Source: Lama guanicoe (lineage: Eukaryota). Taken from it: 64,000 bases of DNA. The position numbers and the translations under genes are program-made. The notes under the pieces are model-generated. The model was not told the origin of the DNA. It did not search any database and saw only the letters and a program-made list of their open reading frames with translations. Where the stretch lies: contig MU053588.1 of the NCBI GenBank assembly GCA_013239625.1, positions 3,252,799-3,316,798 of the forward strand, in the 5' to 3' direction. How positions within the stretch are numbered: position 1 is the first letter of the stretch; each line of letters opens with the position of its first letter. This document shows, piece by piece, positions 1,279 to 62,689 of the stretch.

Positions 1279-1477
1279 TCAGAAGTTTATCACTACCTGA
1301 AGAGTTTATGCTGTCACAATCTTACTGGTAACCTTGTCCATAGTTTGTATGTATTGTGGTGGTGCTAGTGGTGATGATTTTTAGAAGGATTCTAGGGTTC
1401 AGCATATCTGTGGGGCACTTATCAATCTGTCAGGAGGCATTATGGTCCAGTGCTTGATGTCTCAGCTGTGACTATTC

Positions 1478-1606
1478 TTTTGTTTGTTTTTGTTTTGGGG
1501 GGAGGTAATTAGGTTTATTTATTTATTTATTTAATAGAGGTAATGAACCCAGGACCTCGTTCGTGCTAGGCAAGCACTCTACCACTGAGCTATACCTTGA
1601 CCTCCC
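1478..1606 (-). mobile_element. tRNA-derived SINE (camelid Vic-1-like) inside a MIR
   Basis: Reverse complement carries GTATAGCTCAGTGGTAGAG...CCTGGGTTCA head and an AAAT-rich tail. Confidence 0.85.
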
Positions 1607-2102: not shown

Positions 2103-2700
2103 CCATCGACAAATGACTGGATAAAGAAGCTGTGGTATATTTATACAATGGAATACTACCCAGCCATAAAAAAGATAAAATAACACCATTTGCAGCCACA
2201 TGGATGGACCTAGAGATTGTCATTCTAAGTGAAATAAGCCAGAAAGAGAAAGAAAAATACCATATGATACCACTCATATGTGGAATCTAAAAAAAGAAAA
2301 GAAGAGGACACTAATGAACTCATCTACAAAACAGAAACAGACTCGCAGACGTAGTACACAATCTTATGGTTACCAGGAAAAAGGGGATAGTAAAGGATAA
2401 ATTTGGGAATTTGAGATTGGCAAATGTTAGCCACTATATATAAAAATAGATCAAAAAATTTCTTCTGTATAGCACAGGGAAAAATTCTTCTATATAGCAC
2501 ATATATTCAATATGCTTCAATAACCTTTAATGAAAAAGAATATGAAAACAAATATATGTAAGACTGGGAGAATGTGCTGTATACCAGAAATTGACACATT
2601 GTAAGTGATTGTACTTCAAGTTAGATGGATAGATAGATAGATAAATAAATAAATAAATAAAATTAATGATCACTAAAAAAAAAAGGAAAGGAAAAAAAAG
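2103..2700 (+). mobile_element. 5'-truncated L1 (ORF2 end, 3' UTR, A-rich tail)
   Basis: TGGATAAAGAAG.TGTGGTA..TATACAATGGAATACTAC L1 motif; TSD AGAAATC(T/C)AAACAACA at 2087 and 2701. Confidence 0.9.
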
Positions 2701-2994
2701 AGAAATCCAAACAACAATGGCTTAAACAAAATAGAGATGTATTTTCCTCTTACATCTGAAGAGAGTGAGTCACCTCGTCTTTTCAGTCACACTTAGTTCC
2801 TCTACCTCAGTGGCTGCTGGAGCTCTTGACATTGGTTCCAAGTTCCAAGCAGGGATATGGGATGTAAGGGGTTGATATTTTGATCTTTTTCCTTTCAGGA
2901 GCTTTTGTGCAAGCCTCACTCAATCCGTGATTTACATCTTTTTGGCCAGGTGTGTTCTTTGGCCACCTCTATTTGAGCCCAGAGTGTTTATTAT

Positions 2995-3915
2995 TCTATT
3001 TTTTTTATTTTTTGTTTTTTAATTTTTAATTTTTAATTGAAGTATAGTTGATTTACAATGTTGTGTTAGTTTCTGGTGTACAGAAAAGTATTTGTATATA
3101 TAAAATTCATTTTTACATTCTTTTCCATTATAGTTTGTTACAACATATTGAGTATAGTTCCCTGTGCTTTACAGTAGGACCCTGTTGTTTATCTGTTCTG
3201 TACGTAGTAGTTTGTATCTGCCAATCCCAAACTCCTAATTTATCCCTCCACCTGCCTCTCCCCACTGGTAACCATGTTTGTTTTCTATGTCTGTGAGTCT
3301 GTTTCTGTTTTGTAAATAAGTTCATTTGTGTCATTTTAAAATTTTTTTATTTATGAAAAAATCTTAATTATTATTTTTAAAGGAGGTATTGGGGATTGAA
3401 CCCAGGACCTCATGCATGCTAAGTATGTGCTCTGTCACTGAGCTATACCCACCCCTCGTGTCATTTTTTTAGATTCCATGTGTAAGTAATACCATATAAT
3501 GTTTGTATTTCTCTGTCTGACTTACTTCACTTAGTATGATAATGTCTAGGTCCAACCATGTTGCTGCAAATGGCATTATTTCATTCTCTTTTATGGCTGA
3601 ATAATAGTCCATTATGTGTGGGTGTGTGTTTATATATACCCCACATTTTCTTTATCCATTTGTCTGTTGATGGGCATTTAGGTTGCTTCCATGTCTTGGC
3701 TATTGTAAACAGTGCTGCTGTGAACATTGGGGTGCGTGTATGTTTTTGAATTAGACTTTTCTCCAGATATATGCCCAGGAGTGGGATTGTTGGATCATAT
3801 GGCAACTCTACTTTTAGTTTTTTCATTTAAGTAAACCTCCGTACTATTTTCCATAGTGGCGGTACCAATTTACATTCCCAGAAACAATATAAGAGGTTTC
3901 CCTTTTCTCCACACC
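2995..3915 (-). mobile_element. 5'-truncated L1
   Basis: ORF 3581..3826(-) ELPYDPTIPLLGIY...PMFTAALFTIAKTWKQPKCPS is the L1 ORF2 C-terminus; poly-T near 3000. Confidence 0.92.
3338..3457 (-). mobile_element. Vic-1-like SINE nested in L1
   Basis: tRNA-like A/B boxes; TSD GTGTCATTTT at 3328 and 3458. Confidence 0.88.
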
Positions 3916-4772
3916 TGAGTCCAGAGGGTTTAAATGGAACAGGGAGTTTTTTCCCTGTCTATGGGAAAGGGCTACGTTATCCATGACTTAATAAAGCTGA
4001 TGGTGATTTTGGGGTTTATTGCACCCACTGGTTGAGTCTATACTATTCATAGAGTGGTCCACCCAGGCAGGTGGCACTGTCCATGTGGGGGCACAATGCC
4101 CATAGGTTATACTGCATGATGCCATTGCTGGCTATGCAGCTCTACTTCACATGGAGTCACACTGCTTAGTGAGGTGACCCTGTTTATTTGCTTCTCTACA
4201 CCATGCATGTGAGGTTTACCCTGGTTGTGGGAATTGACCCTGCTGCTGGAGGAGTTCACACAATTTAAACAAGTTATGTCACCTCTATGGTAGAGCACAC
4301 TAATGAGGGGACAAGCCATGTGATGGGGGTACAGATTGTTTATTTGCCTTCTCACCATCTATATGGGGCTCACACTGTTATTAGAATTACAGTGCCTATA
4401 CGGGGTTACACCATTTACATGGGTTGACCTGCTGTATACAGCCCACATGGTTTATGGAGGTTGTACTGTCTGTATGGGGTTCAGATCATTTATGAGGGTT
4501 ACCTTATCTGTATGAGGTTTTTGAGGGTCATGCTGCCTATTTTGGGGCCCACACTGGTTTTGAGCATCACACTGTTTGAGGTTTATACTGTCCATACAAG
4601 AGTTACACTGGGTATAGGGTTTACAACAATTATGGATATTGCACTGTCTGACTGTGGGGTTATGCCAGCTGTATGTGGACTCAGTTCACTTCAGCAGATA
4701 CATATTACCAGCCTACTCTATGACAGACTCTGTTCTAGGCACTGGTGATAGAGCAGTGAAGAATGCAGATTA

Positions 4773-4901
4773 GGGGGAAGGGTATAGCTCAAGTAGTAGA
4801 ATACGTGCTTAGCATGCAGGAGGTCCTGGGTTCAATCCCCAGCACCTCCTCTAAAAATAAGTAAATAAACCTAATTACCTACCCCCCTCAAAAAACAATA
4901 A
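4773..4901 (+). mobile_element. Vic-1-like SINE nested in L2
   Basis: GGGTATAGCTCAAGTAGTAGA...GGTTCAATCCCCAG; TSD AAGAATGCAGAT at 4759 and 4902. Confidence 0.9.
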
Positions 4902-5119
4902 AAGAATGCAGATCAAGTAAATCCCTGTCTTTGTGGAGATGGCATTCAGTAGGACAAGTACACTTTTTATGGAAGTTTCCCTCTTTATGGGATTCACATC
5001 AGGATTCATACTTTAGGGGGTTACACTGGCATCAATCCAGGAGGGTTTCTCTGTGTGTTTGGGGCTTCCTTTATTGGTATTACATTGGGCATAAGGGGGT
5101 TCGCTGTCCAAAGATTGAG

Positions 5120-6877: not shown

Positions 6878-6970
6878 GGGGTAGGGTATAGCTCAGTGAT
6901 AGAACATGTGCTTGGCATGCATGAGGTCCTGAGCTCAATACCCAGTGCCTCTGTTAAGGGGAAAAAAAAG
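6878..6970 (+). mobile_element. Short Vic-1-like SINE
   Basis: tRNA-like head plus A tail; 15-bp TSD TTGAACTATCCAAGA at 6854 and 6971. Confidence 0.88.
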
Positions 6971-7494
6971 TTGAACTATCCAAGATGGTCCACATTTCTA
7001 TGGTGGAGTCACACCCTGAGGGTTTATAATATCCATGAACAGGTCATTTTTACCAGAGACTCCCATTCTCTGTGGATGGTTGAGACTCTCCCATGAGGCA
7101 TGCCCACCATCCATGCTTCTGTTTCATAGAATCAATGGGATTGACTTATCCAAGTGTGGGATTGATTTATCCAACTGGGTCAAGGTAGGATTATGCCATT
7201 AACAGGCAATTTCACTGTCAATTCTATGTTCTACTGTTGGAGTCTCTAGGGTGAGGGTGCTTACATCATCCACAGGGTATATCGTTCACTCTGCTAATAA
7301 TTATTACCAGTATTTATTGTGTACTTACATCAAATCTCTGATTTCTCACAATGGCCTAATCATGTAGGGCCTATTGGTAATCCCTGTTTTACAGATGAGG
7401 AAACTGAAGCTCAAAGAGGTAAGTTTACTTGCTCTTTGTCACATACAAGAAATAGCAGAGTTAGGGTTGCAACCCCTGTGGGGCTCACTGAGGC

Positions 7495-9886: not shown

Positions 9887-16336
<6,450 letters not shown>

Positions 16337-30549: not shown

Positions 30550-32730
30550 TTATTGGCATGAAAACCTGCTTCCTGTCTGGCCACCTGTTTTCAGAGAGGT
30601 GAGGGAGGTGCCTGGGGACCTGTCCTGGGACAGGAGTGGGCTGATCTCCTGATAAGGGAGCAGGGTAGAGTGACCCTGGCTCAGGTGCTCAAGCTTCCTG
30701 CGTTTCAGCTCCTCCTCATGTGTCACGATGAGCTGGGTCTGGCTTATCCACTCAAGGGCCTGGGAGGACCCTGCCCCCACGGACCCAGCACAGATCATCT
30801 GCTTCCACTTAGGGAGGGAAGCACTGTCGTTCCTTGGTGACTGGTGAGAATTGGCCATTAGATAGGTCAAGGCCACAGAGTGTAAAGTCAAGGTTTGGAC
30901 AAGAGGGTCCCTGTCTGAGCCTGAGCTATTGGCCGCTTTAGGGGGACACAGGATGATGGGGGGCCACTCAGGCCGGAACAATCTGGGTGTAGACTCTTGG
31001 TGGACATGGATGGGGCAGAACTGCTGTCCCCAAACCCTAACAGGTCCTCCCACCGCCATGACTTCTGCCAGGTCTGGCTCTATCCTCTCCCTCCTGGACC
31101 AACTCCAGCTTCCCCCTTGTCCCACCCCAATGCCAGGGAGCCCTAATTCCCACTTGTGAGCCTCTCCTGTCACTGCCCCAGCTTCTTAGACGAGCTTTCA
31201 AGGCCTTCCCAGGTCTAGGTCTCCCTCCTTACCTGCCTCATCGCCTCTCTGCCCAGCCTCCCTCCCAGGCAGCCCAGCTGCAGCCATGTTCTGCTGCACC
31301 TGTCTGAGCACCTTGGTCTACAGAACCCTGGGAGGAGCCTGTCTGACGGACCTGCCATAAATCATCTGCTTCTAGTTAGAGAGGGAAAGATTGTTACCCC
31401 AGGTAACCTTTGAAAAGGTTGGGGATTCCCTCTTGCTCCCAAGAACTTTGATCTTTCCAGGCCCCATTAAACCCCAGCTGCTCTGTGACAAGTGATTCGC
31501 TTTTCTTCCAGTCACAGTGACTCCTCTGAGCCCGACTCCTGCACTCGTTTCAGGTCACAATCACTCAACAGCACTGATTACAGATACGGGCTGAAAAGAC
31601 CACCTGGATGCCAATCTCTGCTGACGCCTCCGCCTAGCTATGAGAACTTGGGCAAGTTTCTGTCCCTGTTTTCTTATTTGGGGTGACACTGAGATCACCT
31701 CACAGGCCTGCTGGGATCATAATACATGTATAGTAGTGCTAACTGCGGTGCCTGCCACGGCTAGGCAGTCAAATGTTTGCTGTTATTGTGGCTGTCAATA
31801 ACTGGACTATCTCCAAGTATACCAAGAACTCCCCTCTTCGCAGTGTTGCCTGCCTGGAATATTTTCTTCCTCTTCCACTAGCAGATTTCTACTTTTTCTT
31901 CAAGGATTACCGCCTCTAGGAAGTCTGACTCCTGATCTACCACAGAGGTTTGGTCTCTGCTGTGGGATCCTACTGTCCCTGGACATCCCCATTGCAGCCC
32001 TGAGGATCTTTGGGGCTGAGATCTGTCTGCCCTGACCAGTGTTACCCAGCACATGGGAAGGTGGCCTTAGGACACCCAGGCTGAATAAATCAACAAGACA
32101 CTCAAAGAGCAAGGCCATTTGTACTTGTGTATGCTCCTCTGACCACGCTGGGTGGCTCTTGGGGGAGCCCATGTCTGACTCATTCCTGGGTCTCCAGTAT
32201 CACCCAGTCTGCAACAGAGTACCAGGGTACCTACAGATTTCCCTCCATGTTGTCAAAAGTGAGATTAAGGAAGCCCAGAGAAGTCAAGTGCCTTCTTCCA
32301 TCAGGCAGAGCCAAATCCTTGGAGCCCTGAGTCCAGGGAAGGCTAGGGCTGGGGGGATAAGCAGAGGACCCGCAGAGGTATGTGACAGTACCCAGCATAG
32401 ACCTGGCACATGGTTGGGGCTCAGGAAAGGTTACCTGATGTTGCTGGGCACCAGGGTGATGCAGAGCAAAGAGCCTCGGAGAACCCCGATTTGCAATGCA
32501 GTGGGGTGACCTGGGATAGATCATATCATGTCTCAGAGCTCCAGTGTCCCCTCAGGCAGAGGAAGATGACAACTGATGGGGTCGTCCTGAGGAGTCAGTA
32601 AGAGGCCAGGGTGGATGCTGGCACCTGATGGGCACCAGAGGGGCTTGCCAGAGGGTGGTCCCCTTTCTCCCCAGGAGTGCCCACACTTGCTTTTGCAACC
32701 AAACTCTTTTGCTGTTGCTTTTCAGCTCTA

Positions 32731-52890: not shown

Positions 52891-52896
52891 AATAAA
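52891..52896 (+). terminator. DEDD2: DEDD2 polyadenylation signal AATAAA
   Basis: AATAAA about 770 nt after the stop. Confidence 0.8.
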
Positions 52897-53969
52897 ACTG
52901 CCCTGGATGGGGCATAGGTGGGCATCAGGGCTCCCTAGGACTCTTTCTTTATGGGCTGGAGGGAGGAGTTGATGAGAGCACTACCAATCCTGGAGTTCTG
53001 GCCCAGTATTGGGCTGGAAGGTGGGCAGGATGCTGGATCATCTGCTGCCTATTGCCACAGCCTTTCCCTTCTCTTGGCCTGTTTCCTTATCTGTCTAAGG
53101 AGGAAACAATGACTTGGAGTCATAAACTCTCCCACCTTCATTTGCACATGCTTTGCTCCTGTATGTCCTTGGGAGTGCTGGTATTTTAAACTAGTTCAGT
53201 AAGTTGGGCCAGCTCTCTCTCAGGCTGACAGAACCCAAAGGTTTGGAAACCAAATGGATCAGCAGGCAGTGCTCTCTGCCTAGGACCCCTCTCCAGATGG
53301 CTTCCCTCCCCTGACACTTAGGCAGTCACCTTGTCTTAAATCTGACACTCTTGTTCCTCCTGAGGCCGAATGCTTCCTGCTGCCCTGTGGCTACAGCTGA
53401 GGTTGTGGCTTCTTACTCTTTCCCCACAGCTTGTTTAAGGGCTTAGGAACTCAAGTTTCTTACACAATACCTGGGGTGTTCCTTCCTGGGGGAGAAGGAG
53501 AGCCAGGGTGGGGGTGGAGTGGGCAGGGATTCCCAACCGCTAGCTTTTCCTGGGGGAGAGAATCACACACCTGGGAACCGGTTGTGGACCTCTGATCTGT
53601 GTTGATAAAAAGGGATATAGTGGTTAAGTCTAGGAGCTGAGTCCTGCCCAGGAGTCAAGATCTGGTCCAGTTATTAGTTGCTGTGTGATCTTAAGACTAT
53701 TTCCACTTACCATTTCTGGGAGGAAGCTAAGGTCTGCAGGGCACCTAGACAAGATCTATTTAAATGGGCTCAGAGGGGAAATGAGTTGCCTAAGGAATAG
53801 AGCAGCACTGAGATGGAGAGCAGCTTTCCCCTAGTGGAGGCTGTCAGGTTGAGGAGGGAGGTGATGGCTTCCACTACCTTTCAACTTACCTCCCGTTAGG
53901 GGAACTCTCCTTGGCTTGGGCGAGAGTAGGCTTTCTTTTCACCACCTTCCAAGATTGGAGGCCCTCCTC

Positions 53970-54500
53970 CTCTGCTTGGGGCTTCCCGCGCTTGGGGCTT
54001 CCCGCGCTTGGGGCTGGGAGCTGCTGCTTGTCTCCTCCTCCCCTGGGCTGAATTCCGGCATCCGCCTCTGCCGCTGGCCTTGGGCCTGCCTGTTCCCCTT
54101 ACCCCCAATTTACGAATGGTGGACCCCGCCACTTTAGTGGACAGCATTTCGGAACCTGGCCCTTCCCCAACCTCCATTCTGTTCCTTGCTGAAGCCCCGC
54201 CCCCTACTTCAGCCACGCCCGAGTAGACCATCCCACCCGCGGGCCCCACCTCATTCTTTAGGCCTTTCGCGCGCTGTATTTTCAGCTGGGGGCGCGGTTG
54301 GGGGCCCGGGGCGCGGGGGGGCGTCCTTCGTAGCGAGTGCCTGCCGGAAATAAGCCTAATCTCGAGGCCGCCGGAGTCTGCGCAGGCGCAGTATGTACCA
54401 GGAGTTGATGTTGGCGGGAACTTTGAGGCGATGTCTCGCGCTTTCCAGAGCCTTCCTAAGCGTCTGCGGAGAGCCCGCGCTGGGTGTCTGACAGAGTGCT
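53970..54500. promoter_or_regulatory. CpG island with promoter motifs downstream of DEDD2
   Basis: CpG-rich; GC boxes, ETS CCGGAAAT (54344), NRF1-like TGCGCAGGCGCA (54379-54390). Confidence 0.7.
53974..54015. repeat. 16-bp tandem repeat GCTTGGGGCTTCCCGC x2.6
   Basis: Exact copies at 53974 and 53990, partial copy at 54006. Confidence 0.9.
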
Positions 54501-55239
54501 GAGGCCCAGAAGTGGGTCAGACCCAGGCCACGAGGACAACCCAGGGAGATCAAAGAGCTTCAGAAGTGGAGAAATATTCTATGGGGCGGGACAGGGACAG
54601 GCTGCAGCCAAGGGAAATAGGGGCCTGTGGGAGCTCAGAGAAAGGCGGAAAATGGTTTCACAGAGAAGAGGAGCCTGGAGCTGGCTCCTGACGGATGGAT
54701 AGGAGTTCAACAGAATGACAGAGAGAGGCCATTCTTGTCAGAGAACCGCCCTCGAGGAGGCCTTAGGGAACATTCCTGAACAGGATGTAGAGAGACAGAT
54801 GGACAGAGATAAAGGTAAGTGGCAATGTAGAATCAGCCACACCCTCATTCAGTCATCAGTCCTCTGCTACCACACTGACCGACACACAGGGACCCTGACA
54901 ATGACAATATAAGGTGGTAATATGAGGCAAGCCCAGTATGCCTGGGACACAGCAGGACACGTTCCACAAGCCCTCCCAAGTGCCAGGCCCTGGGCTGGCT
55001 GGCCTTTACTGGGGACCATAAGAGGATGCTAGCCTGGGTGCTTGCACTGGACAGCTACTGTTCTGCTAAGGGAGCCAGACTGGGACACTGTAGGTCACAG
55101 TCCAGAGTGGTCAGTGACTGAAAAGACATCAGAGGCTGGAGGAGCCCACATGACCCTGAGTGAAGAGACCCAGGAAGGCTTCATGGATTGGGAAACTCCC
55201 TGTTCATTTTATTAAAAATTACCACCACCACCACCAAGA

Positions 55240-56510: not shown

Positions 56511-56731
56511 TTCTGCTCATTCTTGAAGGAAGAGTGAGAAGTCTTTGGCTGGATAGAATGGTCAAGGGTATTCCAGACAGGTGGAATAGCACGTATGAAG
56601 GCCTTAGGAAACACTTGTTTAAACTGAGTAAGAGGTTTTTGTTGTTGTTGTTTGGGTTTTTTTTTTAAGCATTAGGTTATTAAATGTAAAGAGTATACAG
56701 AGAGATAAATGGAACAAGTCAAGGGTAAATA

Positions 56732-57011
56732 AGATGGTCCAATATGAGTCTCTGGATGGGCAGGGAAGGGAAAGGAGCCAGCAAGGGTCTGGCCAACTGG
56801 CAGAAAACAGAGATCAAGGGAGTGGAGCTGTGTCTATGAGTTGATGTTACAGGTGTGATGGCAGGGGAGGCCTGCCAGGCCTGGAAGGCAGGTGCTGGGA
56901 TCAGAGCAGGATACTGGATTTCAAACATGGAAGACAGTACTGGGTTGTAGTTAAAATCAGGATTTTTAATTTGGGACCCAGAGAGTCCCATGTTACAATC
57001 CTGGCTCTGCC
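56732..57011 (+). repeat. Inverted repeat, left arm
   Basis: Reverse complement of 57726-58004; 3 mismatches over 56732-56988. Confidence 0.97.
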
Positions 57012-57185
57012 ACTTCATTAAATGTGTCACTCAGGGAATTGACTTCACCTTCCTGAGTGTGTATCCTCATCTTTGAAATGAGGATACTAATACCAACTCT
57101 GCAGGTTTTTGTGAAGGGTAAATATGTAAGCCGTCTGGCACAGTGTCTGGCATGTGGTACAAGTGCTCAGTAAGTATTCACTATG
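56930..57185 (+). mobile_element. MIR whose 5' part lies in the left inverted-repeat arm
   Basis: aatcctggctctgccactt...cctcatctttgaaatgaggatactaatacc...cacagtgtctggcatgtgg...gtgctcagtaagtatt. Confidence 0.7.
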
Positions 57186-57725
57186 TGAGCTGCACTTGCG
57201 GGTAATGACTAAGTCCAAGGTGTGGTCATGGGAGTGGGTGGCTAGAGTGGGATGAAGGTCACCAAGGATAAGGTGGAAAGAGACCAAGAGGCTAGATAAT
57301 TGGAAGGATGGATCATCATGGAGGTTAAGTATCCCAGCAGGACAGCAGGGACTAGGGTGGAGAGGAAGTCTGTGGGGATGTGCTAGAATCTTCAGGAATG
57401 AGGGAAAGTGACCAAGGAGTCAACAGATATCACTGAAGTGGTGGAAGAGAGGGTGGCAGAACATGAGGACCTAAGACTCTAGGGAGCCCAGTTTTGTGAA
57501 GCCAGACTAGAGTCGGTGTCTGCCTCATCTGAGTTCCCACTCCCCCTTGTATGTTCCTTTGAGATGTCCCCAGTGATCACATCCCTCACTAAGCCAGAGC
57601 ATGTTAAGAGAGGGACTGGATCTGACCCATCCTCTAGTAGCTAGAAGTATGCATTGGTAAGTGATTGTTGAATGATTTGGGGGGATGAGGGAAGGAGAAA
57701 AGTCATGGGTGACATTTAGTAAAGG

Positions 57726-58004
57726 GGCAGAGCAGGATTCTAACACAGGACTCTCTGGATCCCAAATTAAAAATCCTGATTTTAACTACAACCCAGTACT
57801 GTCTTCCATGTTTGAAATCCAGTATCCTGCTCTGATCCCAGCACCTGCCTTCCAGGCCTGGCAGGCCTCCCCTGCCATCACACCTGTAACATCAACTCAT
57901 AGACACAGCTCCACTCCCTTGATCTCTGTTTTCTGCCACTTGGCCAGACCCTTGCTGGCTCCTTTCCCTTCCCTGCCCATCCAGAGCCTCATATTGGACC
58001 ATCT
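57726..58004 (-). repeat. Inverted repeat, right arm
   Basis: Reverse complement of 56732-57011; ORF track shows nearly the same peptide on opposite strands. Confidence 0.97.
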
Positions 58005-59789
58005 GATCTCTCTGGCCAGCTCTCTAATAGTCAGAGTCCCAGCAGGAAACAGAGGGCACCACAGCTGTGATTTTGAAGAGAACTTAATGAAGGGAGTATT
58101 TGTAGAGGGTGTGGGTCAGGTTGAGGGAACGAACAAGGGAGGTGAAGGCAGCAGGAAGTTGTGACTACAGGTCTACTGGGGTCGGGAAAGGAAATGGTAT
58201 TACTGGAGCCTGTGAGACCACGAAACATACCTGAGAGGTGTCGGTGTCATAGAGGGTACGACCACCGTCACAACCACAGTACTGATGCACAGCTGGAGCA
58301 GGAGACACTTTCTTCCCCTACTCTCTAAGGTCCTGCTGGTGCTTCCCATGGAGGACCCAGTTAGAAGTCAGAGGGCAAGGGAGCCCGGACCGATGCTGTC
58401 TGTATGGGCAGAGAAGAGTGGAGGTGGACCTGGAAGGGCAAAGGGAAAATGACCAGCACGCTCTTTGCCATACACCCTGACCTCTGCCCCATCTATCAAC
58501 ACATCTCTAACCTTGGTTCGCATGGTTAAGATTGACTCAGAGAAGAATGGCGGGGAAGTGGTGCATATAGGTACAACTCCAACTTCTTAGCCTCTTCTCT
58601 CAGTCACCACTCTCCTGTGAGTATCCCCCAACCCTAACCTTTCATTCTCAACAAATGAAATTAAGGCTGATCAGTCATGATTTCCTTTAGCTTCCTATTC
58701 AGACCTACAGGTATTCACACCCAGATCTACTTCACTTCTCCAGGCTCTGTTTTAGTCCAACCTCTCTACCCAGGCATCATCCATCCTATTATGACTCCCA
58801 CAATATTACTCCATCATTCTTCCTTCTCTTTCAACAGTCCTTCCTTCTCTCTCCTTCTTCTTAGTCTATAAATATATGCAAATTTCTACCACCTTAAAAA
58901 CCAATGAAAACCTTCTACCTCCCTTTACTCTGTGCTCTCTCTACTGCCTGTCCTTTGTTTTCCTCCTCATCCCATCCAAAATTCTTTTGTTTTGCCCTAG
59001 GTTTTTTTTTTTTAATTGAGAATTTACTTTTTAGAGAGGAGAGCCAGGGGCACCAGCGTCTCCATGCCTTGGAAGCCAGGCATACTCCTGACCTCCCAGC
59101 CTCTAGCTGCCCAGAGGCTGGGGAATCACAAGGTGATATGGTCAGGGCCAAAATTCTTGAAGGAACAAGTATCAGGGTTGTTTGGCTGCAAGCAACAGAG
59201 ACTGACTTGCTAACTTAAGCAAGCAAGGAATTTATTAGAAGGAAATGAAGGTGACATACATGGTAGAAGGAAAGACTGAAGAACCAGTCTTTGGAAAGGA
59301 CTGGAACCAGGGCAGTGTCAGGGATGGAGATAGTAGGAAGGAATGGCAGTTTCCTTGGGGCCCTGGTGGCTGCAGGAATCAGCTCCAACCAGGTTCAGGC
59401 GTCCTGTCACATACGCTCACAATTTAAATTTCAGGGAGAGCTTCTGATTGGTGCAGTTTGTCATGTGGCCTCCCCTTGGCCTGTGGACAGTCTCATGGAC
59501 TCGTATGCAGTAGGCCATGGGTGGTTACTCAGAGAAAAATCAGGAGCTGTCACAGACGATGGGGAAATGGATGCTGGGCAGGCAGAAATAACAGATGTCC
59601 AGGACACAGAGCACTCCTCCTCGCCAGCCCCAGCCTTCATCTCTAATTTGAGTCTCAACTCACTGAAACCATTTGCACCGAGCTTGTTAATGACCTTCTC
59701 TTGCTAAATCCAAGGACATGTTTCAGTCTGTATCTGCAGTTTTTAATTCCACTGACCAGTGCCTCTCTTTTGAAAATCTTCCCTCCCTT

Positions 59790-60230: not shown

Positions 60231-60496
60231 TTCCATGACATAGCACGCTCATGGTCCTCCTTCCTCCTTGACAGCTTCTCTGGTCCATGTAGGGACTCCT
60301 CTTCCTCTGCCCACCTTTGAAATATGGCTCTTCCCCTGGGCTCCTTCCTTGGCCCACAGCTCTCCTCATTCTAGGTATTCTTCCTGAGAGATGTCATCCA
60401 CCTTCATGACTACAGCTATCACCTGTATGCTGATGATGCCCAAATCTTCAGTGCAGACCTGTACCCATGATACTGCACATAAATATACCTAATATT

Positions 60497-60637
60497 GGGA
60501 GGGAGGGTATAGCTCAGTGGTAGAGGTGGTGCTTAGCATGCACGAGGTTCTAGGTTCAATCCCCAGTCCCTCCATTAAAGAAATAAATAAGTAAATAAAC
60601 AAACCTAACTGCCTCCCTCCCAAAACAAACAAAAAAG
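60497..60637 (+). mobile_element. Vic-1-like SINE
   Basis: GGGAGGGTATAGCTCAGTGGTAGAG...GGTTCAATCCCCAG, AAAT tail, CCTAATATT flanking both sides. Confidence 0.9.
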
Positions 60638-61727: not shown

Positions 61728-61842
61728 CTTTCTTTCTTTTTTTTTTTAAATAATATTATTTTTTAAGTGGAGGTAACTGGGGATTGAACCCAGGACCTTG
61801 TACATGCTAAGCATGCACCCTACTGTGAACTATACCCTCCCC
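61728..61842 (-). mobile_element. Vic-1-like SINE
   Basis: Reverse-complement tRNA-like head and poly-T. Confidence 0.85.
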
Positions 61843-62689
61843 ACCAATCATAAGAGCCATATTGTAGAAGGACCACCCCAGTGGCCAGACTGGAAACTGG
61901 GAGGCCAGGTAGGAAGCAGGTGCATTGGGCAGAGCAGGAGATGTGGAGGCCTGAACCAGGACCGTGGGGGCAGGGGATAAAAGAGGAGATGGGTTTGAAA
62001 AATATCAGGTTGAATTCTATGAAATCGCTCTCTTGTAAGAAAAAGCCAGTTGATGATTGGCAATTCTCCTATGGTTCATCTTAGTGTTAAAAGGTAAATG
62101 ATAAAAGGGTCAATGAACTGGATGGGATTTTGAATCTGACTTGGATGTGAACGTGAGGAAGAGGCTGTCAGGCTGGGGGCCATTTTTCTCGACTTGATTG
62201 CCGATCGGATGCAGATGCTACTTTGGGGAGAGGAAACCCAGGTGTGTGTGTTGGGGAGGCATGATGGGGAAGAGGCATGTTCAGGTTGGACTTGTTGATT
62301 CCAAGGTGCCTTTGGGACCTCCAGGAGGTAGCTGAATATCTGATCTGAAGCTCAGGAGAGAGGGATAGCTAGAGACAAAGTTGGGAGTTATCAGCAGAGA
62401 GAAGATAGTTGTGGGAGGGATGATTCTCTCTGGGAGAGCAGCCGAGATAGTAGAACCAACGGAGTGAGATTCCTAAGATGTGCAGAGGACTTTCAAAAGA
62501 TGGTTGTGGCCATGTGCTGCAGATAAAGCAACTTCAATAGAATTGAAAAGTACCTGTTGGATTTAGCAAGGAGGAGGCCCTCAGTGACGGGGGGAACATT
62601 GATGGAAGTGTCCTGGGCTGGGCTCTGGAGGGGCAGACTAGGCCTCACCTCCGGACTGGCCCTTCATCCTCAGTAATGCATGGCTCCAG

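What the first reader, a model, noticed from the sequence alone, without database searches (positions are those of the whole stretch)
56732..58004. Near-perfect 257-bp inverted repeat with decaying inner edges around a 0.7-kb spacer
Seen: 56732-56988 is the reverse complement of 57748-58004 with 3 mismatches (about 99%). Homology then decays inward (CCCATGTTACAATCCTGGCTCTGCCACTTCATTAAATG vs CCTGTGTTAGAATCCTG-CTCTGCCCCTTTACTAAATG) and stops abruptly outward. The arms include the 5' part of an ancient MIR, so they are not a young transposon pair. Inference: a nearly identical core with diverged edges is the pattern expected from an old inverted duplication homogenised by arm-to-arm gene conversion. 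It could drive recurrent inversion of the spacer and, if transcribed, form a long dsRNA stem (ADAR or Dicer substrate).
Basis: partly seen in the sequence, partly recalled or inferred. Interest (0 to 1): 0.72.

Follow-up and report, generated by a model that had tools for sequence, protein, structure and literature searches.

The report
Old inverted repeat, recently homogenised arms
Two short mirror-image DNA stretches in non-coding camelid DNA look tens of millions of years old at their inner edges yet are 99% identical in the middle, most likely because one arm has been copied onto the other; this is a very small example of a known process, with no function shown.

Summary
The repeat is real: 257-bp arms with 3 mismatches, in camelid non-coding DNA about 4 kb past DEDD2. 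Identity falls inward in steps: 99%, then 82%, then a gapped zone ending near 57053/57690. The inner match far exceeds the background between MIR-like copies (0 of 171 pairs reach it), so both arms descend from one copy. Spurious ORFs from unnamed sources, inferred to be other mammals, map to this locus. They contain the right arm with both of its junctions and differ from the core by at least 9.5%. Both arms share 8 of 9 changes on which two outgroup ORFs agree, and both diverged independently at the inner edge (3 right, 2 left). So an old inverted duplicate had its core copied arm to arm recently. The left arm was not seen in any other species, so repeated conversion (0.55) cannot be separated from one recent long fold-back copy seeded at an old, shorter duplicate (0.27). 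Spacer inversion, transcription and editing were not testable. It works like a miniature FLNA-EMD repeat: a new member of a known kind.

The parts
56732..56988 (+). Left arm, homogenised core
   Evidence: private change at 56749 (two outgroup ORFs read the right-arm allele)
57748..58004 (-). Right arm, homogenised core; lies in its ancestral outer context
   Evidence: P0015 and P0016 read from the arm straight into the right flank; private change at 57939
56989..57025 (+). Left inner zone 1 (28 of 34 aligned bases match the right); MIR-like 5' part
   Evidence: left-derived changes at 56996 and 57018 read off P0017
57714..57747 (-). Right inner zone 1
   Evidence: right-derived changes at 57746, 57733-57734 (1-nt deletion) and 57725
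57026..57053 (+). Left inner zone 2, gapped and older homology
   Evidence: 1-2 of 250 shuffles, anchor chosen after looking
57690..57713 (-). Right inner zone 2; the gapped form also occurs in P0017 and P0013
56965..57189 (+). MIR-like SINE whose body continues only from the left arm (family name recalled; no Dfam library)
   Evidence: Profile built from 23 other copies in the window, repeat region masked: E 2.6e-13; the right piece alone gave no match
57054..57689 (.). Unique spacer (636 nt); would invert on a crossover between the arms
   Evidence: No second copy; P0010, P0013 and P0017 map to it
57180..57419 (-). Decayed LINE-endonuclease-like reading frame in the spacer (L2 by recall)
   Evidence: ESM Atlas: Exo_endo_phos_2 clusters at 0.91 with only 128 and 124 of 256 shared features, a lead; no Pfam match
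58023..58460 (+). LTR-like insertion (MLT1 by recall) starting 18 nt outside the right arm; its start is shared with P0015 and P0016
   Evidence: Edges read by eye
56698..56717 (+). Possible remnant of an older outer end of the left arm (17 of 21 columns match the reverse complement of 57994-58014); unproven
   Evidence: 48-80 of 2000 controls in narrow windows, up to 763 of 2000 in wide ones
53900..54500 (+). CpG island 2.2 kb upstream, with a splice-donor consensus at 54815; a transcript from here could carry the repeat in an intron (inference)
   Evidence: GC 0.63, CpG obs/exp 0.69

Best explanation
An ancient small inverted duplication (at least about 320 bp per arm, cutting through a MIR-like SINE) arose before or around the time camelids split from other placental lineages, probably together with an inversion of the 0.7-kb spacer. 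Since then the arms have been copied onto each other more than once, by fold-back template switching during replication or ectopic gene conversion during break repair, last within roughly the past few million years. The stepwise inner decay and sharp outer edge fit copying that is primed at the inner end and runs outward, so the priming stretch is never overwritten and erodes. SHOWN: the repeat, three identity zones, common descent of the inner zones, independent change on both arms at the inner edge, the right arm with both junctions in other species, core changes shared by both arms. INFERRED: that the outgroup ORFs are mammalian orthologues, that the outer 200 bp of the left arm is old, repeated copying, the fold-back mechanism, the original inversion, all dates. 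It is most likely a neutral by-product with no function.
For: Core 3 of 257 vs inner 6 of 34 mismatches, Fisher p=1e-4. Inner pair scores 37; 0 of 171 pairs among 19 other MIR-like copies reach it (max 16), and either arm against those 19 reaches at most 23. P0017 scores 99.6 on the arm-to-far-spacer template and -72.5 on the arm-to-MIR-body template. Of 7 inner differences P0017 polarises 5: 3 arose on the right arm, 2 on the left. The core differs from P0015, P0016 and P0017 by at least 24 of 253, 11 of 113 and 12 of 128 nt. Of 9 core events on which two outgroup ORFs agree against the window, 8 are in both arms (picked by hand). At 7% expected divergence, 3 or fewer differences in 257 has probability 1e-5. 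The SINE body continues only from the left arm, which marks the right inner junction as the derived one, and that junction is already in P0017.
Against: The left arm's outer junction was not found in any other species: the search built to catch it returned 1 protein among 875 candidates, and that was right-type. Outer-edge decay, expected if the whole arm were old, is not significant. The 3 mismatches lie near the edges, but a 179-nt perfect run has probability 0.11 under uniform placement, so more than one conversion round is not shown. The outgroups are unnamed and seen only as amino acids; if they form one clade, some 'camelid-derived' changes have the opposite polarity. The LINE collinearity behind the original inversion rests on recall and one Atlas lead; the test of the downstream piece gave no hit. 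The inner zone is only 34 aligned bases (corrected divergence 0.20, 95% interval 0.07-0.46).
Confidence: 0.55

Rival explanations
1. Only a short inverted duplicate (the MIR-like 5' part, about 100-120 bp) is old. One recent long fold-back template switch, primed in that old homology, copied about 257 bp of the right arm onto the left side and created the sharp outer edge. Arm-to-arm copying occurred, but once.
For: The right arm is in ancestral context in all three outgroup ORFs that overlap it; the left outer junction was seen nowhere else; the outer edge is sharp; human inverted duplications have a median length of 284 bp and mostly show microhomology (10.1101/2024.04.18.590093). All results fit this reading too.
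Against: If the SINE inserted into a LINE whose pieces flank it, the outer arm sequence was attached to the complete left SINE from the start (LINE identity: lead only). A weak trace of an older outer end lies at 56698-56717 (not significant in wider windows).
Confidence: 0.27
2. A wholly recent inverted duplication. The inner decay is either family-level likeness of two independent MIR insertions or error-prone synthesis at the junction of the new copy.
For: Size matches the commonest human inversion class; MIR-like copies are dense here (23 others in 64 kb), so an inverted pair nearby is not rare.
Against: Inner similarity is beyond all 171 background pairs; changes fall on both arms, not only on a new copy; P0017 shares left-type bases while carrying the right-type junction.
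Confidence: 0.07
3. The arms are kept complementary by selection because they form a long intronic RNA stem (editing, splicing or silencing of the transcript from the CpG island at 53900-54500).
For: The transcript would fold into a nearly perfect stem of over 250 bp (whole 1341-nt region -814.9 kcal/mol, no shuffle control); a CpG island and donor site lie 2 kb upstream.
Against: The arm has drifted from outgroups about as fast as its flank (9.5% vs 8.9-11.5% visible changes). Exact matching of 1-2-nt deletions on both arms is what copying gives; compensatory selection would tolerate G-U pairs and bulges. No Rfam family matches the region.
Confidence: 0.06
4. Assembly artefact: a fold-back chimera or gap-filling error duplicated the right arm onto the left.
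For: The assembly has a gap (37 N at 10792-10828); no reads could be examined.
Against: Each arm has its own derived base relative to outgroup ORFs (56749 left, 57939 right); a third mismatch at 56977; the inner zones differ at 6 of 34; the left arm runs in register into a SINE body.
Confidence: 0.05

Closest known systems
FLNA-EMD inverted repeats / HsInv0389 (Caceres et al. 2007, seen only as cited in PMC3961182, passages; details of the repeats recalled)
   Same: Old inverted pair in a placental mammal whose arms stay more alike than their age allows; spacer open to inversion.
   Different: Those arms are kilobases long, X-linked and flank genes, with recurrent inversion shown across mammals. 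Here 257 bp, non-coding; recurrence and conservation of both arms not shown.
Actively maintained intergenic inverted repeats of Caenorhabditis (PMC1803023; part 1 of 4 read)
   Same: Arms of 124-160 bp with spacers of 126-414 bp, more alike within than between species; similar scale.
   Different: Those lie between duplicated gene pairs that extend the homology, and both arms were seen in three species. Here there are no genes in the arms and only one arm was seen outside the window.
Template-switch homogenisation of inverted repeats (PMC8604942; part 1 of 7 read)
   Same: One arm templates the other; arm homogenisation and spacer inversion are the two outcomes.
   Different: Cases there have arms of 7-16 bp and spacers up to 70 bp; this one is more than ten times larger.
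Small human inverted duplications (10.1101/2024.04.18.590093; passages)
   Same: Median 284 bp, close to this arm length.
   Different: Those are young polymorphisms; this pair has old, independently diverged inner edges.
Inversions with breakpoint inverted duplications from staggered breaks (PMC1885836; passages)
   Same: Formerly single-copy sequence duplicated in inverted orientation at inversion ends; median 321 bp.
   Different: Described in Drosophila, where duplicates decay (about 88% identity); here the core is 99% and the original inversion is inferred, not shown.
Human homology-mediated polymorphic inversions (PMC6748972; passages)
   Same: Arms over 90% identical; arm-to-spacer ratio is high, which there correlates with inversion frequency.
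   Different: The 24 cases have repeats of 654 bp to 24.2 kb; no polymorphism data exist here.

Membership tests
Concertedly evolving inverted repeat (FLNA-EMD / Caenorhabditis type) | Two near-identical arms in inverted orientation around a unique spacer | tested here: met
   254 of 257 identical; spacer single-copy in the window
Concertedly evolving inverted repeat (FLNA-EMD / Caenorhabditis type) | Arms closer to each other than to orthologues | tested here: met
   1.2% vs at least 9.4-9.7% visible changes against three outgroup ORFs
Concertedly evolving inverted repeat (FLNA-EMD / Caenorhabditis type) | Duplication older than the core identity implies | tested here: met
   Inner zone 6 of 34 vs core 3 of 257; changes on both arms; above the MIR background. 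Shown for the inner, SINE-derived part only.
Concertedly evolving inverted repeat (FLNA-EMD / Caenorhabditis type) | Both arms present, and homogenised separately, in other species | tested here: inconclusive
   Right arm with both junctions seen; left outer junction not seen; no orthologous DNA obtained
Recurrent homology-mediated polymorphic inversion | Flanking inverted repeats over 90% identical | tested here: met
Recurrent homology-mediated polymorphic inversion | Repeat length within the reported range (654 bp to 24.2 kb) | tested here: not met
   257 bp vs PMC6748972; that range reflects ascertainment as well as biology
Recurrent homology-mediated polymorphic inversion | Both orientations segregate or differ between lineages | not testable with these tools
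   No reads available; no outgroup ORF spans an outer flank, a whole arm and an inner junction
Young single-event inverted duplication (replicative) | Length of a few hundred bp, close to its source | tested here: met
Young single-event inverted duplication (replicative) | Uniformly low divergence along the whole duplicate | tested here: not met
   Fisher p=1e-4
Inversion with breakpoint duplication (staggered breaks) | Spacer inverted relative to the ancestral state | tested here: inconclusive
   SINE body only on the left; endonuclease-like piece on the minus strand (lead); downstream LINE piece not confirmed
Inverted pair of independent transposon copies (inverted-SINE dsRNA type) | Arms are two separate insertions of one family | tested here: not met
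   About 200 of 257 nt have no other match in the window; inner match above family background
Inverted pair of independent transposon copies (inverted-SINE dsRNA type) | Both arms in one transcript and edited | not testable with these tools
   No RNA run could be laid on the region
DNA transposon or MITE with long terminal inverted repeats | Target-site duplication and an element boundary at the outer ends | tested here: not met
   No direct repeat at the outer edges (read); P0015 and P0016 cross the right edge without a break; a SINE runs through the inner edge

The most novel reading that the evidence does not exclude
A 257-bp inverted repeat inherited from an early placental ancestor has been kept nearly perfect independently in several mammalian lineages by repeated inner-primed fold-back copying, leaving dated strata at the inner edge and flipping a 0.7-kb intronic segment downstream of the DEDD2/POU2F2 CpG island. 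It would be a miniature autosomal FLNA-EMD system, well below the arm length usually associated with recurrent inversion, and would point to an uncatalogued class of sub-kilobase self-maintaining repeats that look young but are old.
Probability: 0.2. Interest if true: 0.65.

Novelty: new member of a known kind. Interest (0 to 1): 0.4.

Why it matters
Arm-to-arm homogenisation is well described for kilobase-scale palindromes and for repeats of about 10 bp. A mammalian case of 257 bp with dated inner strata and a one-sided decay would give a compact natural test of conversion versus fold-back template switching and of the minimum homology for recurrent inversion. It also warns that a 99% identical inverted duplicate need not be young. 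If only one recent copying event occurred, it is an ordinary structural variant. No function is shown.

Tried and rejected
Own genome: none held. Sequencing runs with the library word PACBIO: none was listed, no RNA holder listed; this is no evidence either way, and no reads could be laid on the region. DEDD2 last exon against metagenome and prokaryote contigs: 0 of 597 and 0 of 600 pattern hits confirmed. A 20-nt arm motif in metagenome contigs: 0 matches. Earlier scan findings: none in 3 look-ups. Fetching a LINE ORF2 reference to test collinearity failed: 0 of 47 candidates, no Pfam family for the spacer frame, 3 chance-level PDB matches, 0 papers, no Atlas hit for the downstream piece, no other copies in the window for 27 of 29 tiles, the 2 with matches being the SINE. 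P0011 and P0012 were dropped as repeat-driven chance hits. Decay beyond the outer edge: a 9-nt match reached 31 of 5000 shuffles at 40 nt but 261 of 5000 at 100 nt; with the LTR-like piece left out, 970 of 4000, or 264 of 4000 with 6 arm bases added; rejected as unproven. Absence of CpG in the arms: neighbouring DNA is also depleted (obs/exp 0.07-0.17), so not treated as a signal. The long ORFs across the arms (56719-57030 minus, 57676-58164 plus) have no Pfam family above cut-off (for the right one) and the outgroup ORFs shift frame across the arm, so a coding role is rejected. Human inversion tables: no entry recognised at the orthologous place in supplements of PMC12229492 (3 files, gene-focused tables), PMC10150506 (4 chr19 rows of Table S1) and PMC6467913 (3 files); the human coordinates were recalled, some files may be cut or not held, and the bioRxiv supplement of the 1,019-genome study was not seen, so this is weak. 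Literature on this locus: 0 papers with POU2F2+DEDD2+inversion, 2 unrelated with POU2F2+DEDD2+promoter (listing only).

Full report
OBSERVATION. The repeat is as described. Window 56732-56988 and the reverse complement of 57748-58004 differ at 3 of 257 positions (56749, 56797, 56977), with a perfect run of 179 nt. It is the only near-identical pair among the 17 self-BLAST pairs of the window and the only one above 90% among 12 inverted pairs. Inward, 56989-57025 aligns with 57747-57714 at 28 matches, 6 mismatches and 3 gap columns. A gapped extension reaches 57053/57690 (1-2 of 250 shuffles, anchor chosen after looking). Outward the match stops (37 of 250 shuffles do as well).

SETTING. The window is camelid: its ZNF526 protein matches Vicugna pacos ZNF526 at 672 of 673 residues. 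Ets, kinase, DED and TRADD-like domains and the translations fit the gene order ERF, GSK3A, ZNF526, DEDD2 (these three other names, and POU2F2 as the next gene, are recalled). The repeat lies 3.8 kb past the DEDD2 poly(A) signal at 52891 and 2.2 kb past a CpG island at 53900-54500 with a splice-donor consensus at 54815. An intronic position is therefore plausible but not shown.

ANATOMY. A profile iterated from SINE-like copies elsewhere in the window (23 copies, repeat region masked, seeded with the left copy) matches 56965-57189 at E 2.6e-13. I call it MIR from recall of the consensus. Its body continues only from the left arm; the right piece alone gave no match. About 200 nt of each arm have no other copy in the window. 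The spacer frame 57180-57419 (minus) resembles retrotransposon endonuclease clusters in the ESM Atlas at 0.91, with low shared-feature counts; this is a lead only. From recall, the arm and the DNA beyond an LTR-like insertion at about 58023-58460 look like later parts of the same LINE on the plus strand, which would mean the spacer was inverted when the duplicate arose. I could not test this: every attempt to get a reference failed.

THE INNER EDGES ARE OLD COPIES OF ONE SEQUENCE. The inner pair scores 37. None of 171 pairs among the 19 other copies that cover this part reaches it (maximum 16), and either arm against those 19 scores at most 23 (4 of the 23 copies were too short here and left out; the inner pair's end point was chosen from its own alignment, which favours it slightly). 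Core and inner zone differ in divergence (3 of 257 vs 6 of 34, Fisher p=1e-4). Corrected divergence is 0.012 (0.002-0.035) for the core and 0.20 (0.07-0.46) for the inner zone. At a recalled rate near 2e-9 per site per year that is about 3 (0.5-9) and 50 (18-115) million years.

OUTGROUP EVIDENCE. No orthologous DNA could be obtained. The protein collections, however, hold spurious ORFs from unnamed ENA and Logan contigs that map to this locus: P0010 and P0013, P0015 and P0016 (2 of 20 candidates) and P0017 (1 of 875 candidates). That they come from other mammals is my inference from their collinearity with non-coding DNA and their distance; P0015 differs from P0016, and P0013 from P0017, so at least two distinct sources are involved. 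P0015 and P0016 read from the arm straight into the right flank and the LTR-like piece: the right outer junction is ancestral. P0017 reads from the middle of the arm through the inner zones into the far end of the spacer; a frameshift-aware alignment scores 99.6 on the right-type template and -72.5 on the left-type one. So the right inner junction, including the gapped zone 2, is also shared with a distant species. P0017 polarises 5 of the 7 inner differences: 3 arose on the right arm (57746, a deletion at 57733-57734, 57725) and 2 on the left (56996, 57018); 2 are silent in that frame. P0017 is about equally far from both inner zones (4 visible substitutions each, plus the right-arm deletion; read). 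Both arms have thus been mutating separately at the inner edge for about as long as the lineages have been apart.

THE CORE HAS BEEN COPIED. Minimum visible substitutions in the core are 24 of 253 nt (P0015), 11 of 113 (P0016) and 12 of 128 (P0017); about 67% of changes are visible at this level, so true distance is near 14%. From the event lists I picked by hand the core events on which two outgroup ORFs agree against the window: deletions at 57774-57778, 57830 and 57924, substitutions at 57889, 57904, 57906, 57939, 57964 and 57980. Two further shared positions (57763, 57871) were dropped because the two ORFs imply different bases. Eight of the 9 are in both arms; 57939 is private to the right arm, and 56749 is private to the left. 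If both arms had drifted apart even 7%, 3 or fewer differences in 257 would have probability 1e-5. A caveat: if the outgroups form one clade some polarities reverse, but the contrast of 1.2% against about 14% remains.

WHAT IS NOT SETTLED. The left outer junction was not seen outside the window. One search was designed to catch it: a simulation at 12% substitution without indels recovered 20 of 20 for each of the three window rows of the profile. But it depends on an ORF having been called there, and it did not return P0010, the representative of its own first row, so the blank is weak. Traces of older homology outside the outer edge were not significant in wider windows. The edge-biased placement of the 3 mismatches is within chance (0.11). 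Hence repeated conversion of two old arms (0.55) and one recent long copy seeded at an old shorter duplicate (0.27) both stand; together, arm-to-arm copying after an old duplication is about 0.8. A wholly recent duplicate (0.07), selection for an RNA stem (0.06) and an artefact (0.05) are minor.

MECHANISM (inferred). Ectopic conversion with homology needed on both sides should erode both edges. Here the inner edge decays in steps and the outer edge is sharp. Fold-back template switching fits better: the nascent strand enters the second arm, pairs with the first arm at the inner end and copies outward. The priming stretch is never overwritten, so it erodes and the start point creeps outward. 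Template switching is reported to give both arm homogenisation and spacer inversion, though for much shorter arms (PMC8604942, part 1 of 7). Mammalian conversion tracts of a few hundred bp could also cover the core in one event (PMC3961182, passages). A crossover between the arms would invert 0.7 kb, but the arms are shorter than the 654-bp minimum among 24 human homology-mediated inversions (PMC6748972, passages). If transcribed, the region folds into a long stem, yet the arm drifts about as fast as its flank (9.5% vs 8.9-11.5%) and matches no Rfam family.

COMPARISON. It works like the FLNA-EMD repeats (seen only as cited in PMC3961182) and the maintained Caenorhabditis repeats (PMC1803023, part 1 of 4). 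Membership is likely but lacks the defining test of both arms in other species. Its size is that of common human inverted duplications (median 284 bp; bioRxiv 2024.04.18.590093, passages) and of Drosophila breakpoint duplications (median 321 bp; PMC1885836, passages). It is not a transposon with terminal repeats and not a pair of independent insertions. Two searches for this locus found nothing relevant; the library lacks most subscription papers. Other searches were seen as listings only.

VERDICT. Real, old at its inner edge, recently copied in its core, probably neutral. New member of a known kind; interest 0.40. The boldest reading not excluded, a placental-wide self-maintaining mini-repeat with recurrent inversion, has probability about 0.2 and would merit 0.65.

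Noticed in passing
window 2103-2674 and 2983-3673: A second, older inverted pair about 300 nt apart: two LINE-1-like 3' ends (label recalled) at 74% and 67% identity, one interrupted by a SINE at about 3363-3455. Not homogenised; a natural contrast to the finding.
   Followed up: partly
window 1474-1606, 3363-3455, 4768-4907, 6878-6971, 60494-60636, 61738-61849: Six copies of a tRNA-derived SINE, 74-84% alike in the listed pairs; the copy at 60503-60574 passes the Rfam tRNA threshold. Camelid SINE by recall.
   Followed up: no
window 53977-54014: Exact short tandem duplication (a 16-nt unit twice) inside the CpG island.
   Followed up: no
window 53900-54820: CpG island only about 1 kb past the DEDD2 poly(A) signal, with a strong splice donor at 54815; probably the far upstream promoter of POU2F2 (recalled, not checked).
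   Followed up: partly
window 30759-30820 and 31327-31387: Direct repeat of about 60 nt at 79% identity, 570 nt apart, between GSK3A and ZNF526; origin unknown.
   Followed up: no
window 56625-56731: The left outer flank reads on the minus strand like an A-rich tail after a short unique stretch; it may be a retro-insertion that set the outer limit of the left arm. No homologue found.
   Followed up: partly
window 10792-10828: Assembly gap of 37 N in the GC-rich region upstream of ERF.
   Followed up: no
P0010, P0013, P0015, P0016, P0017: The protein collections hold spurious ORFs called on non-coding host DNA; these can stand in for orthologous non-coding sequence when no genome is held.
   Followed up: yes
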